A DNA stretch of 64,000 bases from Escherichia phage 235Ecol030PP: sequence record PP355091.1. One strand, 5' to 3'. Each line of letters begins with the position of its first letter. The first letter of the stretch is position 1. The translations under genes were made by a program, and so were the position numbers. The notes beneath the pieces are model-generated. The model ran no database searches. It was not told the origin of the DNA and saw nothing but the letters and a program-made list of their open reading frames with translations. Shown here one piece after another: positions 1 to 57,417 of the stretch.

Positions 1-550
1 CGTAAGCGTACTGGACATTAGCGTCTTTAAACGTACCTTTAGAGGTATCTATTTCTGCCTTAAAGCCGCCTTTAGCCATAGCATCGGCAAATTCTTTACG
101 GAAAGCCATTGCATCAAGACCTTTCCATGATGATTTATGCTTGGCAAATTCAAGACCAGCGTAGTTGACAGCCTTAGCTAATTTATTATCAATAACCCAT
201 TTACCGGCTTTAGGCACAAACTTCGGGCCTTTTTGTTTAGAGAACAGTTTTAAATTCCAGCGACGAAGGTCACTGTCGGCTTTAACAAAAGCTGCGTCTA
301 AGTTACTAGCAACAACATCTTCAATATGAGCAAATTTAAGTCCGTCAACTTCAATATTTAGATCGTTACGCCAGCGAAGTCCTTCCCAAGCGAAGGCTTT
401 AAAGTCGGAAGCCTTTGTAGCTAAGTACCGTTCAATAGGAGCTGTTTTAGGGTCAAAGCCGTTTCCCGATCGGTAGGTCCACTCATCTTTATTAATGCCT
501 TTGGCCTTTACTATAGAAGCTTCGGCAATAAATTCTTGATAGGTTTTCAT
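1..550 (-). CDS. ipIII: internal head protein, IPIII-like, with capsid-targeting sequence; 3' end lies beyond window start
   Basis: ATG at 550-548; N-terminus reads MKTYQEFIAEA, the T4 internal-protein CTS with a gp21-type I-x-E site; ORF open to position 1. Confidence 0.6.
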   Translation of the reverse strand, partial: MKTYQEFIAEASIVKAKGINKDEWTYRSGNGFDPKTAPIERYLATKASDFKAFAWEGLRWRNDLNIEVDGLKFAHIEDVVASNLDAAFVKADSDLRRWNLKLFSKQKGPKFVPKAGKWVIDNKLAKAVNYAGLEFAKHKSSWKGLDAMAFRKEFADAMAKGGFKAEIDTSKGTFKDANVQYAY

Positions 551-611
551 GTGTTTCCTTGTTTGTTTTGATAGAGTAATTATACCATATTAATACTTAA
601 GCGTAAACCGT

Positions 612-872
612 TTAAGCTTTACCGCCAGAAATAATTCCGAAGTTGTTAAAATCATATCCAATATCGTCAACATCTACTTTAGGACTTGCTACAACATAAG
701 CAATTTCACTACATTTTGCACAGGTGTTGATTTCTTTACCATCGCCACCTAAGAAAGAATACCCATTACGTTTTAATGAGCCAAAGTCTTCCGCATCATC
801 AATGAAAGCTTTAACTTTAAATTTAGAACCTTTGGCATCTGCTTCAACGATAAATTCTTGATACATTTTCAT
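612..872 (-). CDS. internal protein, IPII-like, CTS-bearing
   Basis: 86 aa; N-terminus MKMYQEFIVEA; AAGGA RBS before ATG at 872. Confidence 0.6.
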   Translation of the reverse strand: MKMYQEFIVEADAKGSKFKVKAFIDDAEDFGSLKRNGYSFLGGDGKEINTCAKCSEIAYVVASPKVDVDDIGYDFNNFGIISGGKA

Positions 873-985
873 TTTTCCTTAGTAAATTGATTTACCAAAG
901 TATTTGTACCAAGTCGGACGTTGATCAATTTTTTCATCTAAGCGTGCTTGATTTATCGCAATGGACGCTTCGGACGGGTCATAAT

Positions 986-1040
986 TTCCTCCAAGTAGTT
1001 GATGAATGTATAGTATCAAAACCCTTGGAGGAAGTAAACA
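986..1040 (-). promoter_or_regulatory. early sigma70-type promoter with stem-loop (PeSL-like cassette), copy 1
   Basis: minus strand GTTTAC (fwd 1034-1039), 18-nt spacer, TACTAT (fwd 1010-1015); 10-bp inverted repeat TTCCTCCAAG/CTTGGAGGAA (fwd 986-995 and 1024-1033). Confidence 0.5.
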
Positions 1041-1041
1041 A

Positions 1042-2282
<1,241 letters not shown>

Positions 2283-5166: not shown

Positions 5167-5430
5167 TTATTTCATATTATTGAAATATTCTTCTGCGATT
5201 TCGTCGTTATCATGGTAAACTTTAGAAGACAGTTTAACATAACTTTCAGCAGTGAACATGTTAATCACAACCTTTACAGTATACCACTGACCATCTTCAT
5301 TACCCATTACTGCGTAAGTTTCAAACATCGGATGATCAGGACCGATAACTTTAATATCATTCACTGTACGACCAAAATCTTCTGAAACACATTTCATAAA
5401 GAAGTTGAACAGTTCGCCGTAATTATCCAT
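5167..5430 (-). CDS. hypothetical protein (e.8-like)
   Basis: ATG at 5430 with GGAG RBS; track ORF begins at TTG 5442. Confidence 0.65.
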   Translation of the reverse strand: MDNYGELFNFFMKCVSEDFGRTVNDIKVIGPDHPMFETYAVMGNEDGQWYTVKVVINMFTAESYVKLSSKVYHDNDEIAEEYFNNMK

Positions 5431-5474
5431 TTCATTCTCCAAGTTGTTTTCTGTATCAGTAGTTGATAGTTGTA

Positions 5475-5502
5475 TAGTACCATAGAAGAACAGGGATGTA
5501 AA
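5475..5502 (-). promoter_or_regulatory. early sigma70-type promoter (PeSL-like family), copy 2
   Basis: minus strand GTTTAC (fwd 5497-5502) and TACTAT (fwd 5475-5480); shares a ~20-nt core with copies at 1010-1039, 9752-9781, 10115-10144. Confidence 0.5.
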
Positions 5503-5634
5503 CAGTTTTGTGAAAAATTTTTTAAAAAGTTTTGGGGAATTCTAGGGCAAGGAGGGGAAATTAAAGGATAGGATAATATATTATAAAGGGTAGAAACTAA
5601 ATGATGCCTAGAGAGGCCTGGAAAGGCCTAGATA

Positions 5635-5661
5635 CCAAAAAGCCCCAACCTTTTGGTCGGG
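5635..5661 (-). terminator. rho-independent terminator, minus strand
   Basis: minus RNA CCCGACC-AAAA-GGUUGGG stem-loop followed by UUUUU; near-copy at 6193-6221. Confidence 0.6.
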
Positions 5662-5671
5662 ACTAAGAATA

Positions 5672-6144
5672 TTATTTGATTTGTTTAGCAGACCAAATGC
5701 GGTCTTTAATAATTTTTTGGATGTCTTCAACATACTCAAGAGAATGAGCATGTGGGTTATCTTTAAAGCTATGAGCACGAGCTAGCTTTTGGCCTTCAGT
5801 TTTGATTACTAAAAGCTCTTTAAGGATAGCTTCATATTTGGAGATAATTCCTTTAACGATATTTTTTCTTGTGCGACTTTAGGATCTGCTTTAGGAGCAG
5901 GTTTACCCGAAGCCTTTGCAAAAGCAGCGCCAGTAGCAACTAAACTTTTCCAGGCCATACTAACTGCATTTCCCGTAAATCCTTCCGCTTTCATGTCGCG
6001 TGCGAACTGGAATCGTGATTCATCAGAAGCATCTTTGTAAGAATATTTACCCGCTGCAATGGCTGCTTTTGCGACAGCTTGAATTTCGGTGCTAGATGCT
6101 TCATTTAACACCGCTTCATTTAAAAATTGAGTATATGATTTCAT
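5672..6144 (-). pseudogene. CTS-bearing internal-protein-like gene interrupted by frameshift at A6 run
   Basis: ATG 6144, N-terminus MKSYTQFLNEAVLNEA; frame ends at 5809; a second frame continues plausibly to stop 5672 beside terminator; frames meet at fwd T6 run 5862-5867. Confidence 0.5.
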
Positions 6145-6184
6145 CTTATTTCCTGTTTTAATTCGTGGTTTTAATATACTACTA

Positions 6185-6192
6185 TATTTATA
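6185..6192 (-). promoter_or_regulatory. late promoter TATAAATA, minus strand
   Basis: fwd TATTTATA; about 40 nt upstream of ATG 6144. Confidence 0.5.
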
Positions 6193-6221
6193 CCAAAAAG
6201 CCCCAACCTTTCGGTCGGGGC
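6193..6221 (-). terminator. rho-independent terminator, minus strand
   Basis: minus RNA GCCCCGACC-GAAA-GGUUGGGGC with one G.U, followed by UUUUU. Confidence 0.65.
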
Positions 6222-6527
6222 TAAGCCTTGCGGCAACCTTGTCGGGGTTCCACCTGCTAAGGCAAGTGTTTGTACGAAACGCCGGGATTCGAACCCGGTT
6301 ATTAAGCAGTTGACGCTACTCAATATTTTTAAAAGGCCATATCTCGACCATATCCGAACGTTCCGTCAAAAACGCTACTCGGTTTACGGCAAAGATATTT
6401 CCTCGAATCGATAATTCGGTGCGCCGTTTCTGCTGTGATAGTAAAGAGCCAGAACACAGTAAAACTGTGGGAGGAAACTATACTCCAGGGAACATCAGTC
6501 CGACGACTTACCGGTAGCGACCCGGTT
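6222..6527 (-). ncRNA. probable stable small RNA(s) downstream of tRNA-Arg, T4 species 1 / species 2 type
   Basis: no ORF of 60 aa or more; tRNA-like T-arm CCGGGTTCGAATCCCGG (fwd ~6283-6299); ends at terminator 6193-6221; boundaries not determined. Confidence 0.3.
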
Positions 6528-6529
6528 TC

Positions 6530-6880
6530 TTAGTATTCTTTTAAAGCATCAACCTGTTCACGACGTTTACGCCATAAATCAATTACTTCATACGCAGATT
6601 CAGCATTTCGAATTGGACGGCATTTATATAAAGACTTGTGATTTTGATATTGTGTAGATAACGGAATTTTATCTAAAAGGTCTTTACGTTCAAAATATTC
6701 GTAACCATCTAAACCAAATGAACGATTTTTGAGAAATTGCCAATGACCATATTCGTTTTCGACATAAACATAATCTGCATGCTGATAAAGCAAATTAATT
6801 ACACGTTCAGAAATAACAGTATCATTATGATTAAAATAGAATGTTAAATCATGAACTACTAAATAAACATTACCTTTCAT
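6530..6880 (-). CDS. hypothetical protein between stable RNA region and tRNA-Arg
   Basis: 116 aa, ATG at 6880 with GAGGAAA RBS. Confidence 0.6.
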   Translation of the reverse strand: MKGNVYLVVHDLTFYFNHNDTVISERVINLLYQHADYVYVENEYGHWQFLKNRSFGLDGYEYFERKDLLDKIPLSTQYQNHKSLYKCRPIRNAESAYEVIDLWRKRREQVDALKEY

Positions 6881-6977: not shown

Positions 6978-7643
6978 TTAAAATTTCATTTTTCGACCTT
7001 TAAACCATCCTTCTGGAATTGGGTCAGTTTTCTTAATACGTTTAGAAACTTTTTCATCTAATGAATGAATCCACATCATACCAAATTGGGAATTCTTTTC
7101 GCCCTGTTGATGTTTATTTCTGGCGTGAGATTCTTTCATTTTATTAATAGTTTCAGGAGTATGATGCTTATTTAAAAATCTGCTATTATTTAAAAATTTT
7201 TCCCTGTATTCAGGAGTTGACCACAAGCGTTTAAATACATTTGAACCATGTTTACGATATTTTTCTTGAAGTAAAATATCATTTTTAAAACGTGACTTAA
7301 ACGATTTAGCTCCTTTTAAGCTAGCATCTTTCTTCTGGTTTAGCATCCCAGGAATATTTACATGATCCCATCCACCTTCACCACCAAGTTTTAAATTATA
7401 CACATCTGGTCTATTTAAAAACTCTTCTGTGACAATATTTTTCTCGGCTTCAAGCATAGATTCTTTATCGTCAAAGAACTCTAATATTTCTTTAGAAAAA
7501 TTTTCTATACCATACTTATCTTGGGCTCTTTTTAATAATTTACCAGAACCCATATATCCATCATCTAAATTTTCGGTAGAATGAGCGCCTATATAGATTT
7601 TATTATTAATTTTATTTGTTATTTTATAAATGTAATGGAACAT
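6978..7643 (-). mobile_element. segB: GIY-YIG homing endonuclease SegB within the tRNA cluster
   Basis: 221 aa; N-terminal YIYKITNKINNKIYIGAHS GIY-YIG motif; located between tRNA-Arg and tRNA-Ile as in T4. Confidence 0.85.
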
Positions 7644-9537: not shown

Positions 9538-9723
9538 CTATTCACCTTTAGAAATTTTATCCATAACGATAGCAATTAAACCAATTAAAAATGCTACTAC
9601 AAGTGAAAATACATTTTCTGCTGTAGTTAATAATCCGCATATAAATCCAACAAACATTGAAAAACTAAATGCAGAAGCAGAAATTGCAATAGCAACATTT
9701 CGAATTAATTCACAACGTTTCAT
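9538..9723 (-). CDS. small hydrophobic protein, two predicted TM helices
   Basis: 61 aa, ATG 9723 with GAGGAG RBS directly downstream of early promoter copy 3. Confidence 0.5.
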   Translation of the reverse strand: MKRCELIRNVAIAISASAFSFSMFVGFICGLLTTAENVFSLVVAFLIGLIAIVMDKISKGE

Positions 9724-9751
9724 TTTATTCTCCTCAGTAGTTGATAGGGTA

Positions 9752-9781
9752 ATAGTATCACAACTAAAACCCTATGTAAAC
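9752..9781 (-). promoter_or_regulatory. early promoter with stem-loop (PeSL-like cassette), copy 3
   Basis: GTTTAC (fwd 9776-9781), TACTAT (fwd 9752-9757); inverted repeat ATAGGGT/ACCCTAT brackets the -10. Confidence 0.5.
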
Positions 9782-9799
9782 AACTTTGTGAAAAATTTA

Positions 9800-10084
9800 T
9801 TACAAAAGATTTTTAGCAATAATTTTAAGCTGAGCTACTGAAATATGCTTGGCTTTAAACAAAGCAGTTTCTTCAGCAGGGGAGATAATGATTGTAGCAC
9901 CATCTTTCTTAGCGGACCATCCATCACCCAGGTAAACAGTACCTTTAACTTCTTCGCCATCAACCAGGCTAATCATCGGTTTACCTTCACGTCCTTTGTT
10001 TGCTTTAATAACTTCAGAAGTAAGGGTCGCTTCAGTCAAAGTAGAAGCGTTAGTGGTTGAAGTGAATTCTTGATAAGTTTTCAT
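9800..10084 (-). CDS. ipI: internal protein at the ipI position, CTS-bearing, divergent mature sequence
   Basis: 94 aa; N-terminus MKTYQEFTSTTNASTLTEA; sits immediately downstream of 57B as ipI does in T4. Confidence 0.6.
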   Translation of the reverse strand: MKTYQEFTSTTNASTLTEATLTSEVIKANKGREGKPMISLVDGEEVKGTVYLGDGWSAKKDGATIIISPAEETALFKAKHISVAQLKIIAKNLL

Positions 10085-10114
10085 TTTATTTTCCTAATTA
10101 ATTTTGATGAGGTA

Positions 10115-10144
10115 ATAGTATCACTACCTCATCAGCATGTAAAC
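10115..10144 (-). promoter_or_regulatory. early promoter with stem-loop (PeSL-like cassette), copy 4
   Basis: GTTTAC (fwd 10139-10144), TACTAT (fwd 10115-10120); inverted repeat TGATGAGGTA/TACCTCATCA brackets the -10. Confidence 0.5.
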
Positions 10145-10156
10145 AACTTTGTGAAA

Positions 10157-43481: not shown

Positions 43482-43486
43482 AACAA

Positions 43487-43502
43487 AGGGACCTTTCGGT
43501 CC
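43487..43502. terminator. bidirectional terminator between gene 24 (+) and rnlB (-)
   Basis: GGGACC-TTTC-GGTCCC flanked by A-run upstream and T-run downstream. Confidence 0.7.
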
Positions 43503-43510
43503 CTTTTTAT

Positions 43511-57389: not shown

Positions 57390-57393
57390 CAAT

Positions 57394-57411
57394 GGGGACC
57401 TTTCGGTCCCC
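57394..57411. terminator. bidirectional terminator between gene 54 (+) and the 57418..57708 gene (-)
   Basis: GGGGACC-TTTC-GGTCCCC followed by T-rich tract. Confidence 0.65.
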
Positions 57412-57417
57412 ATATTT

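What the first reader, a model, noticed from the sequence alone, without database searches (positions are those of the whole stretch)
5633..6226. Near-identical terminator repeats flank the CTS gene cassette
A ~33-bp unit (TACCAAAAAGCCCCAACCTTTYGGTCGGGRCTAAG) occurs at 5633-5665 and 6191-6225 in direct orientation. On the minus strand each is a GC stem with a tetraloop and a U5 tract. The upstream copy is fused to a late TATAAATA promoter. Direct repeats on both sides of a single accessory gene give a ready substrate for deleting or exchanging it by homologous recombination.
Basis: seen in the sequence. Interest (0 to 1): 0.4.

Follow-up and report, generated by a model that had tools for sequence, protein, structure and literature searches.

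The report
Duplicated terminator brackets swappable phage gene
In this T4-like phage, two copies of one transcription terminator flank a small gene for a protein predicted to be injected with the DNA, and related phages carry, lack or swap that gene exactly at the terminator, a further example of the known way T4-type phages shuffle accessory genes.

Summary
A 36-nt direct repeat (34/36 identical) lies at 5632-5667 and 6190-6225. It has no third copy in the 64-kb window. On the minus strand each copy is a 10-bp GC-rich stem, a tetraloop and a U5 tract. The copy nearer rnaC overlaps a TATAAATA late promoter (6185-6192) by 3 nt.

The window is a Tequatrovirus. The repeat is the terminator that follows the tRNA/rnaD/rnaC cluster. 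It brackets a late-promoter cassette, here called gene A: 157 aa in relatives, with a capsid-targeting leader. In the window gene A is frameshifted at a poly-A run.

- T4, PST, RB3 and KIT06 carry one repeat copy and no gene, which is the exact collapse product.
- About 390 genomes carry gene A followed by the repeat.
- A second cassette, gene B, gives A-only, A+B, B-only and empty states, with every junction at a terminator.
- Genomes whose rnaC-side flanks are 98-99.7% identical carry different states.
- The two repeat copies co-vary by genus.
- Gene B is 95% identical between genera whose neighbouring genes are 73-88% identical.

Recombination at the repeat is inferred, not observed. This is a late-promoter, GC-hairpin variant of the known regulatory-cassette shuffling (PeSLs, internal-protein loci). 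Interest is modest.

The parts
6190..6225 (-). R1, the rnaC-proximal copy of the 36-nt repeat. It is an intrinsic-terminator hairpin (stem-loop 6199-6222, U-tract 6194-6198) ending the tRNA/rnaD/rnaC transcription unit.
   Evidence: The equivalent site is annotated as a terminator in G4507, D5505, PhAPEC2 and fPS-65.
6185..6192 (-). T4-type late promoter box TATAAATA. It overlaps R1 by 3 nt and lies 40 nt upstream of the gene A ATG.
   Evidence: Sequence. TATAAATA sits at the same position in G4507, D5505, L014, L021, L035 and BYEP02, and AATAAATA in Mosigvirus-type loci. fPS-65 annotates a 'predicted late promoter' here.
6145..6184 (-). Gene A 5' leader, with a Shine-Dalgarno AGGAAA at 6149-6154.
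   Evidence: Sequence.
5672..6144 (-). Gene A, the cassette cargo. It is a 157-aa basic protein in relatives, with a capsid-targeting leader MKSYTQFLNE|A. In the window it is broken into an ORF at 5809-6144 (111 aa) plus the C-terminal coding part at 5672-5861 in another frame.
5862..5867 (-). Poly-A run inside gene A. It is A6 here, A7 in intact alleles and A9 in ECO4 and fPS-65. This is the site of the frameshift.
5632..5667 (-). R2, the distal copy of the repeat. It is an intrinsic-terminator hairpin (stem-loop 5641-5664, U-tract 5636-5640) starting 4 nt after the gene A stop codon. It differs from R1 at 2 positions, one in the loop and one giving a G-U pair in the stem.
6226..6270 (-). 45-nt trailer between the rnaC 3' end and R1. 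It is the conserved right-hand anchor of every configuration.
6271..6410 (-). rnaC (species I RNA), 139/140 identical to the annotated RB3 gene. The diverged rnaD follows at 6418-6531.
5167..5442 (-). e.8 homologue, the conserved left-hand anchor. Its early-promoter-like TTTACA-17-TACTAT lies at 5502-5474.

Best explanation
The two repeats are copies of one intrinsic terminator, the one that ends the tRNA/rnaD/rnaC cluster of T-even phages. Together they bracket a self-contained late-expression cassette: a TATAAATA promoter, a ribosome-binding site, an ORF with a capsid-targeting leader (a predicted packaged and injected internal protein of unknown target), and a terminator. R1 stops transcription coming from the RNA genes and abuts the cassette's promoter. 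R2 stops the cassette's own transcript before e.8.

Because the copies are in direct orientation, exchange between them removes the 558-bp unit and leaves one hybrid terminator. The exchange could be an intramolecular crossover, an unequal crossover between co-infecting or concatemeric genomes, or copy-choice slippage at the hairpin. The reverse event, or exchange with a phage carrying another cassette, inserts or swaps cargo without damaging either flanking transcription unit.

Shown: the repeat, the hairpins, the promoter box, the leader motif, and natural genomes that have exactly the predicted products. Inferred: that the crossover lies within the repeat, that the hairpins terminate transcription, that the promoter fires late, and that the protein is packaged.
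For: 1. Anatomy.
2. Empty alleles (T4, KIT06, RB3, PST) have one repeat copy with the e.8-type 3' flank GGTATCTA(A/G)GCC and the rnaC trailer on the other side, with no scar.
3. Shfl2 and RB69 (gene B only) differ from D5505 and PhAPEC2 (A+B) by exactly the R-to-R unit.
4. Census: gene A occurs once per genome in 511 records. It is followed by R2 in 393 of 397. Gene B occurs in 165 records, and the A+B junction in about 126.
5. Genomes with near-identical rnaC-side flanks carry different states. Window/G4507 [A], D5505/L015 [A+B] and Shfl2 [B] are 98-99.7% identical there. KIT06 [empty] is closest to L035 [A] at 97.9%. RB69 [B] and PhAPEC2 [A+B] are 98.2% identical.
6. Concerted variation: both copies read CCCCTTCC in Mosigvirus-type loci and CCCCGACC in Tequatrovirus.
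7. BYEP02 carries an 81-bp tandem duplication of trailer plus repeat whose second copy is L035-like, a footprint of misaligned exchange.
8. Cassette B is 95.4% identical between D5505 and PhAPEC2, while e.6, e.8, gene A and ORF116 are 73-88% identical.
9. Cassette D in L008 compared with L020 is inserted right after the repeat's U-tract and ends in its own terminator.
10. T4 is documented to delete and amplify DNA by recombination at 6-10 bp homologies (PMC9391042). Terminator-promoter cassettes were shown to recombine and excise mini-circles in RB49 and phi1 (PMC2839356).
Against: - Thirty-six bp is short for T4 homologous recombination. Arbiol et al., citing Singer 1982, describe the T4 recombination system as needing only small (<50 bp) patches of homology (PMC2839356). 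The flanks offer hundreds of bp at 90-99% identity, so most spread of alleles between phages may use the flanks and not the repeat.
- No hybrid repeat that can only arise by an R1xR2 crossover was identified. T4's single copy carries the R1 variants at both sites that differ in the window.
- Selection for intact transcription units could by itself place cassette boundaries at terminators.
- Covariation support for the hairpin is weak: one compensatory pair in 23 sequences.
- A near-identical hairpin occurs in unrelated ~38-kb phage contigs, so hairpin identity alone is not proof of common descent.
- Termination, late transcription and packaging are all untested.
Confidence: 0.7

Rival explanations
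1. The repeats are only functional punctuation. Each transcription unit needs a strong terminator, and the copy after gene A was kept because it insulates e.8. The presence/absence pattern is produced by ordinary homologous recombination in the long conserved flanks (e.8-e.6 on one side, rnaC and the tRNA genes on the other). Double-strand breaks made by the adjacent SegB homing endonuclease may stimulate it. On this view old alleles are shuffled and the repeat is never the crossover site.
For: The flanks are 90-99% identical over hundreds of bp. segB lies about 750 bp away at 6978-7643, where the syntenic T4 and PST CDSs are annotated as homing endonucleases. Comeau et al. list homing-endonuclease-linked transfer as a parallel route (PMC4122927). 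The different states found on identical rnaC-side flanks can arise from one crossover anywhere between the markers.
Against: It does not explain how the alleles first arose with scarless junctions exactly at the repeat. It also does not explain why the two copies share genus-specific variants, or why cassettes B and D also begin at a terminator U-tract and end with GGGCTTTTT. It complements the repeat model more than it excludes it.
Confidence: 0.2
2. The similarity is convergent. Two independent strong terminators happen to look alike because efficient hairpins with a GNRA-type loop and a U-tract are sequence-constrained.
For: The same 22 specified bases (AAAAAGCCCCAACCTTT..G..GGG.C) occur in several unrelated viral contig families. 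One of them, about 37-38 kb long, encodes a portal protein (its only PHROG match is portal family phrog_7376) and its flanks share nothing with the T4-like loci. A second look-alike terminator pair exists in the window at 43485 and 57392.
Against: Identity extends beyond the hairpin into unpaired flanks (CTTAG 5' and GGTAT 3'), 34/36 overall, with 0 matches in shuffles. The copies co-vary between genera. The empty allele is the exact fusion of the two flanks.
Confidence: 0.03
3. A sequence- or structure-specific factor targets GCCC...GGGC terminator hairpins and captures cassettes at their U-tract, in an integron-like manner. Mosig (1998) and Arbiol (2010) speculated about such a factor for GGGC motifs and PeSL stems.
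For: Cassettes A, B and D, and the start of C, all begin immediately after GGGGCTTTTT. A, B and D also end in GGGCTTTTT. The literature notes GGGC at T4 deletion endpoints (PMC2839356).
Against: No recombinase candidate was identified. Microhomology plus selection explains the same pattern. Only one locus was examined.
Confidence: 0.07

Closest known systems
PeSL / PmSL regulatory cassettes of T4-like phages (Arbiol et al. 2010, PMC2839356; Comeau et al. 2014, PMC4122927)
   Same: Both are composite terminator stem-loop plus promoter elements in direct orientation around small accessory ORFs in hyperplastic regions. In both, related genomes show the intervening ORF present, absent or replaced, with a single element left at the empty site. 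The proposed mechanism is also the same: element-to-element recombination, with mini-circle excision and integration.
   Different: The promoter here is a late TATAAATA box, not a sigma-70-like early or MotA middle promoter. Only one of the two copies carries it, so the homology is the terminator alone (36 nt). There are two copies at one locus rather than dozens per genome. The T4/PST pair analysed in 2014 is empty at this locus, so that study could not have seen this polymorphism.
Conserved flanking blocks of the two T-even internal-protein loci (Repoila et al. 1994, as summarised in PMC2839356, PMC4122927 and PMC12373910)
   Same: The cargo is a small basic ORF with the conserved N-terminal capsid-targeting leader. 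The gene content is polymorphic and bounded by conserved regulatory sequence. The window holds a classic example: the ipI-like gene at 9800-10084 is flanked by an ~87-nt repeat made of early promoter, RBS and start codon (9709-9793 and 10070-10156).
   Different: Those elements are described as based on T4 early promoters with weak AT-rich stem-loops lacking G/C runs (PMC2839356). Here the element is a GC-rich intrinsic terminator. The locus (e.8 to rnaC) is neither the ipI nor the ipII/ipIII locus, and it is empty in T4. [quoted passage not shown]
Short-homology deletion and amplification in T4 (Srikant et al. 2022, PMC9391042; Mosig et al. 1998 GGGC endpoints, cited in PMC2839356)
   Same: Direct repeats define the endpoints and one copy remains. 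Accessory genes, including ipIII, are lost in this way.
   Different: Those events use 2-10 bp homologies scattered in the genome and were seen in laboratory evolution. Here the repeat is 36 nt, functional, conserved across hundreds of isolates and tied to one site.
Integron gene cassettes (analogy drawn by Arbiol et al. 2010)
   Same: Single-ORF cassettes are bounded by a recurring structured element and stack in tandem at one site (A+B arrays).
   Different: No integrase or attI site was identified. Each cassette here carries its own promoter. Exchange is presumed to use general recombination.

Membership tests
Intrinsic (Rho-independent) terminator | GC-rich stem-loop followed directly by a U-tract | tested here: met
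   Both copies have 10 pairs (6-7 G-C), a 4-nt loop and TTTTT. Folding energies are -21.6 and -17.8 kcal/mol, z about -3.
Intrinsic (Rho-independent) terminator | Located at the 3' end of a transcription unit | tested here: met
   R2's 36-nt unit starts 4 nt after the gene A stop codon (hairpin 7 nt after it). R1's hairpin starts 48 nt after the rnaC 3' end.
Intrinsic (Rho-independent) terminator | Pairing maintained in evolution | tested here: inconclusive
   90% of cells are paired, with one compensatory double change (L030 distal copy). Four of the 10 pairs never vary, and the Mosigvirus form has two U-U mismatches.
Intrinsic (Rho-independent) terminator | Transcripts end at the U-tract | not testable with these tools
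   This needs Term-seq or 3' RACE.
T4 late (gp55-dependent) promoter | TATAAATA box a short distance upstream of the gene | tested here: met
   An exact TATAAATA lies at 6192-6185 (minus strand), 40 nt before the ATG, and is conserved in relatives.
T4 late (gp55-dependent) promoter | Late-phase transcription start | not testable with these tools
   This needs 5' RACE or an RNA-seq time course.
PeSL (promoter-early stem-loop) elements | Stem-loop terminator within the repeated element | tested here: met
PeSL (promoter-early stem-loop) elements | Sigma-70-like or T4 early promoter (-35/-10) immediately after the stem-loop, as part of the repeat | tested here: not met
   R1 is followed by a late TATAAATA box and R2 by GGTATCTAGG. 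The nearest early-type promoter (TTTACA-17-TACTAT at 5502-5474) lies about 130 nt beyond R2, outside the repeat.
PeSL (promoter-early stem-loop) elements | Many dispersed copies in hyperplastic regions | tested here: not met
   There are only two copies in 64 kb at up to 8/28 substitutions. Complete T4-like UViGs match only at this locus.
PeSL (promoter-early stem-loop) elements | Flanks ORFs that are present, absent or replaced between close relatives | tested here: met
PeSL (promoter-early stem-loop) elements | Excised mini-circles detectable | not testable with these tools
   This needs inverse PCR on infected cells.
T-even internal proteins (CTS-targeted, injected) | N-terminal ~10-aa capsid-targeting sequence, with key residues at positions 4 and 7 and an L/I-x-E cleavage motif at 8-10 (PMC9026906) | tested here: met
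   MKSYTQFLNE|A has Y4, F7 and L8-N9-E10, with a second LNE at 13-15. The window's three ipII/ipIII-locus genes carry the same motif. The ipI-like gene shares only MKTYQEF (Y4, F7) and lacks the L/I-x-E at 8-10.
T-even internal proteins (CTS-targeted, injected) | Small basic protein expressed late | tested here: met
   The protein is 157 aa with pI 9.5 and has the late promoter box noted above.
T-even internal proteins (CTS-targeted, injected) | Encoded in one of the two classical IP loci | tested here: not met
   The gene lies between e.8 and rnaC. The ipI-like locus is at 9800-10084 and the ipII/III-like genes lie below 1400.
T-even internal proteins (CTS-targeted, injected) | Present in virions, cleaved by gp21 and injected | not testable with these tools
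   This needs virion proteomics.

The most novel reading that the evidence does not exclude
The GCCCC...GGGGC-U5 terminator downstream of the tRNA/rnaC cluster is a dedicated capture site, an integron-like 'att' element of T-even phages. A specific factor, rather than general homology, would insert and excise late-promoter cassettes there. This would define a third locus for injected proteins that phages use to trade anti-defence cargo across genera.
Probability: 0.07. Interest if true: 0.7.

Novelty: new variant of a known kind. Interest (0 to 1): 0.3.

Why it matters
Injected internal proteins of T-even phages are emerging as highly specific inhibitors of type IV restriction (GmrSD) systems: Ip1, Ip2 and Ip3 each block a different one (PMC12373910, PMC9391042). 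A third locus, empty in T4, carries leader-bearing genes in roughly 500 sequenced phages and gains or loses them cleanly at a duplicated terminator. That would help explain host-range differences among near-identical therapeutic phages. It also offers a natural, transcriptionally insulated site for engineering packaged cargo. Conceptually it extends the PeSL idea from early and middle promoters to terminator plus late-promoter cassettes. It does not overturn anything known.

Tried and rejected
- Junction-specific megablast census of the empty site. The tool joins the two half-matches across the 558-bp cassette, so the count of 198 full-coverage records mixes empty and A-only genomes. Only the proportion of single-piece hits (8 of the 20 sampled) could be used.
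- Cargo function. There was no Pfam hit for gene A and only a sub-threshold Cytochrome b562 hit for gene B. PHROG 2280, which both proteins match, has no known function. There was no PDB sequence relative. The AlphaFold2 model is all-helical with pLDDT 71, and Foldseek against the PDB gave nothing below E=1.
- Gene A and gene B as recent paralogues. BLASTP aligns only the 11-aa leader, so their shared PHROG may reflect little more than the leader.
- Covariation as proof of the hairpin. It was too invariant, with one compensatory pair.
- Rfam. It found only tRNAs, and nothing for the repeat, rnaC or rnaD.
- Primary sources. Repoila 1994 (PMC395341) and Miller 2003 (PMC150520) are not held. What Repoila 1994 showed is cited second-hand. 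The statement that this terminator ends the T4 tRNA operon rests on my memory of Broida and Abelson 1985 and on position.
- Assembly artefact. Rejected, because the arrangement recurs in hundreds of independent genomes.

Full report
**Observation.** The window holds a 36-nt direct repeat at 5632-5667 and 6190-6225. The copies are 34/36 identical and lie 558 bp apart start to start. Relaxing to 8 substitutions in the 28-nt core finds no third copy anywhere in the 64 kb. On the minus strand both copies are the two strongest terminator-like sites in the first 20 kb: 10 pairs, a 4-nt loop (GAAA in R1, AAAA in R2), then TTTTT. They fold at -21.6 and -17.8 kcal/mol, z about -3. The copy at 6190-6225 (R1) runs straight into TATAAATA at 6192-6185 on the minus strand and shares 3 nt with it. 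The other copy (R2) continues GGTATCTAGG.

**What lies around it.** The window is a Tequatrovirus. The region 5400-6600 is 99.5% identical to phage ECP52 and matches 751 phage records. The truncated protein encoded between the repeats is 100% identical to a Shigella phage SfPhi01 protein. Reading the minus strand, the order is:
- eight tRNA genes (one, tRNA-Arg, lies downstream of segB) and segB;
- a 116-aa ORF at 6530-6880;
- rnaD (about 6418-6531) and rnaC (6271-6410, 139/140 identical to the annotated RB3 gene);
- a 45-nt trailer, then R1 fused to TATAAATA;
- a Shine-Dalgarno sequence and an ORF starting MKSYTQFLNE|A;
- R2, starting 4 nt after the stop codon of the full-length frame;
- e.8 (5167-5442) with its own early-type promoter.

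The ORF ("gene A") is 157 aa in relatives. In the window a poly-A run is A6 instead of A7, which truncates the product to 111 aa. The leader has Y4, F7 and L-x-E at 8-10. These are the positions shown for IPIII to govern capsid targeting and gp21 cleavage (PMC9026906). The protein is basic, pI 9.5. The unit is therefore a complete late transcription unit for a predicted packaged internal protein, insulated on both sides by the same terminator.

**Comparative test.** I fetched representative loci and anchored them on the rnaC trailer and the e.8 start. Four main states exist.
- *Empty* (T4, PST, RB3, KIT06): trailer, one repeat copy, then GGTATCTA(A/G)GCC and e.8. This is precisely the fusion expected if R1 and R2 recombine.
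- *A only* (window, G4507, ECP52, L035, L014, BYEP02): R1, promoter, gene A, R2.
- *B only* (RB69, Shfl2): the repeat, an AATAAATA box, a different 187-aa leader-bearing gene ("gene B"), then another terminator T' whose 3' part is GGGCTTTTTGGTATCTAGGCC.
- *A+B* (D5505, PhAPEC2, L015, L021): R1, promoter, A, R2, promoter, B, T'.

B-only and A+B differ by exactly the R-to-R unit. The site also holds other cargo. ST0 and L033 have a 208-aa gene (126 aa in L033) starting MYTFNEFLAETE after the repeat and TATAAATA. L008 has a 184-aa hydrophobic protein that L020 lacks. That insert starts right after the repeat's U-tract and ends in its own terminator, with GGGCTTTTTTATA repeated at both junctions.

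**Census.**
- Gene A occurs in 511 phage records, once each.
- The junction of the gene A 3' end with R2 is intact in 393 of 397 matching records.
- Gene B occurs in 165 records.
- The junction of the gene B leader, the repeat and the gene A 3' end occurs in about 126 records.
- These numbers imply roughly 270 A-only, 120 A+B and 40 B-only genomes.
- Eight of the 20 sampled full-coverage matches to the T4 junction are single-piece. Of 198 such records, that suggests about 80 empty genomes, many of them T4 laboratory records.
- An even-step sample of 60 of the 751 records gives the same picture.

**Signs that exchange happens at the terminators.**
1. On the rnaC-side flank, window/G4507 [A], D5505/L015 [A+B] and Shfl2 [B] are 98-99.7% identical. 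KIT06 [empty] is closest to L035 [A] at 97.9%, against 92.9% to T4 [empty]. RB69 [B] and PhAPEC2 [A+B] are 98.2% identical. Cassette state has therefore changed repeatedly on closely related backgrounds.
2. The two copies share genus-specific variants: CCCCTTCC in both copies of PhAPEC2 and DCP548, and CCCCGACC in both copies of Tequatrovirus loci. This fits conversion between the copies, or repeated re-duplication.
3. BYEP02 has an 81-bp tandem duplication of trailer plus repeat. Its second unit and downstream promoter are L035-like, which looks like a misaligned inter-phage exchange.
4. Between D5505 (Tequatrovirus) and PhAPEC2 (Mosigvirus), nucleotide identity is 79% in e.6, 88% in e.8 and 82% in the e.8 upstream spacer. 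It jumps to 95.4% in gene B and 92% in its leader, then falls to 76% in gene A and 73% in the 116-aa ORF. Cassette B moved between genera as a unit bounded by terminators.

**Mechanism and rivals.** The best-supported reading is that a duplicated terminator gives both transcriptional insulation and a 36-bp direct homology. Exchange across that homology deletes, inserts or swaps the late cassette. T4 recombines at far shorter homologies (6-10 bp) to delete accessory genes, including ipIII (PMC9391042). Terminator-promoter cassettes in RB49 and phi1 were shown experimentally to excise as mini-circles (PMC2839356).

The main rival holds that the repeat is only punctuation, and that alleles spread through crossovers in the long conserved flanks, perhaps helped by SegB cleavage nearby. 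That rival explains spread but not the scarless junctions or the co-variation of the copies, so I treat the two as complementary.

Convergence is unlikely because identity extends into unpaired flanks. Even so, a near-identical hairpin in unrelated ~38-kb phage contigs shows that the design itself is generic. A dedicated hairpin-targeting factor cannot be excluded but has no positive evidence. Termination, late transcription, packaging and the crossover itself are all inferred.

**Relation to known systems.** Functionally this matches the regulatory-cassette shuffling described as PeSLs and PmSLs (PMC2839356, PMC4122927). It also matches the polymorphic internal-protein loci of Repoila et al. 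1994, which I could cite only second-hand. It is not a PeSL by definition. The repeat holds no early promoter, only one copy abuts a promoter, that promoter is a late one, and there are two copies at one locus rather than many dispersed copies.

It also differs from the IP-locus elements as Arbiol et al. describe them: early-promoter based, with AT-rich weak stem-loops. The window shows that classical type around its ipI-like gene (9709-9793 and 10070-10156). T4 and PST, the pair analysed in 2014, are both empty here. No annotation I saw names gene A or gene B as internal proteins. One record (fPS-65) independently marks terminator, late promoter and terminator around the gene.

**Verdict.** This is a new variant of a known kind and of modest interest. 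Its main value is as a clean, well-populated natural example, and as a pointer to a third locus of predicted injected proteins that is absent from T4.

Noticed in passing
window 5862-5867 (minus-strand poly-A inside gene A): The run is A7 in intact alleles, A6 in the window (the same 111-aa product as a Shigella phage SfPhi01 protein, in a cluster of 10 member sequences) and A9 in ECO4 and fPS-65. A6 and A9 both shift into the same frame. Truncations at the same tract recur in divergent alleles (P0005, P0007). The tract sits in the linker between the conserved N-terminal domain and the variable C-terminal helices. It could be homopolymer sequencing error or a real slippage-prone switch.
   Followed up: partly
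window 9709-9793 and 10070-10156, flanking the CTS-like gene at 9800-10084 (-): The ipI-like gene (MKTYQEFTST...) is bracketed by an ~87-nt direct repeat, 76-81% identical, made of an early-type promoter (GTTTACAT...TACTAT), a ribosome-binding site and ATGAAA. This is the classical IP-locus flanking element.
   Followed up: partly
window 1-1323 (-): Three more genes with capsid-targeting leaders lie here: 1323..1042 [10 protein letters not shown], 872..612 MKMYQEFIVE, and 550..<1 MKTYQEFIAE. Their first 32 nt form a direct-repeat family. This is the ipII/ipIII-type locus.
   Followed up: no
window 6530-6880 (-): A 116-aa ORF (phrog_3355, unknown function) sits between rnaD and tRNA-Arg. T4 and PST lack it, and there rnaD directly adjoins tRNA-Arg. 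It is only 73% identical between D5505 and PhAPEC2.
   Followed up: no
window 6978-7643 (-): A 221-aa CDS syntenic with the homing endonuclease annotated in T4 and with PST segB lies inside the tRNA cluster, about 750 bp from R1. Co-conversion during homing could drag the cassette locus along.
   Followed up: no
L039 (phage BYEP02), rnaC trailer region: An 81-bp tandem duplication of the rnaC 3' end, the trailer and the repeat gives three repeat copies. The two duplicated units differ in sequence, which suggests inter-phage unequal exchange.
   Followed up: partly
L006, L009-L013, L018, L019, L026-L029, L032, L034, L036 (IMG/VR contigs, up to ~38 kb): An unrelated phage family carries a hairpin that is nearly the same, AAAAAGCCCCAACCTTTCGG(CC/CA)GGGGC. 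In L006 an ORF's only PHROG match is portal family phrog_7376, and the flanks share nothing with the T4-like loci. Other single occurrences are in L016/L025, L017, L022, L023 and L024.
   Followed up: partly
window 43485-43506 and 57392-57412: Two other strong palindromic terminator-like hairpins resemble each other (GGGACCTTTCGGTCCC core) and read as terminators on both strands. This may be a second family of look-alike terminators.
   Followed up: no
L004 (RB69) 1771-2333: RB69 annotates gene B as two overlapping ORFs (ORF148c and ORF149c). Only a 146-aa N-terminal ORF is open, against 187-188 aa in the intact homologues. This suggests a frameshift in that record, so cassette genes at this site are often found disrupted.
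   Followed up: no
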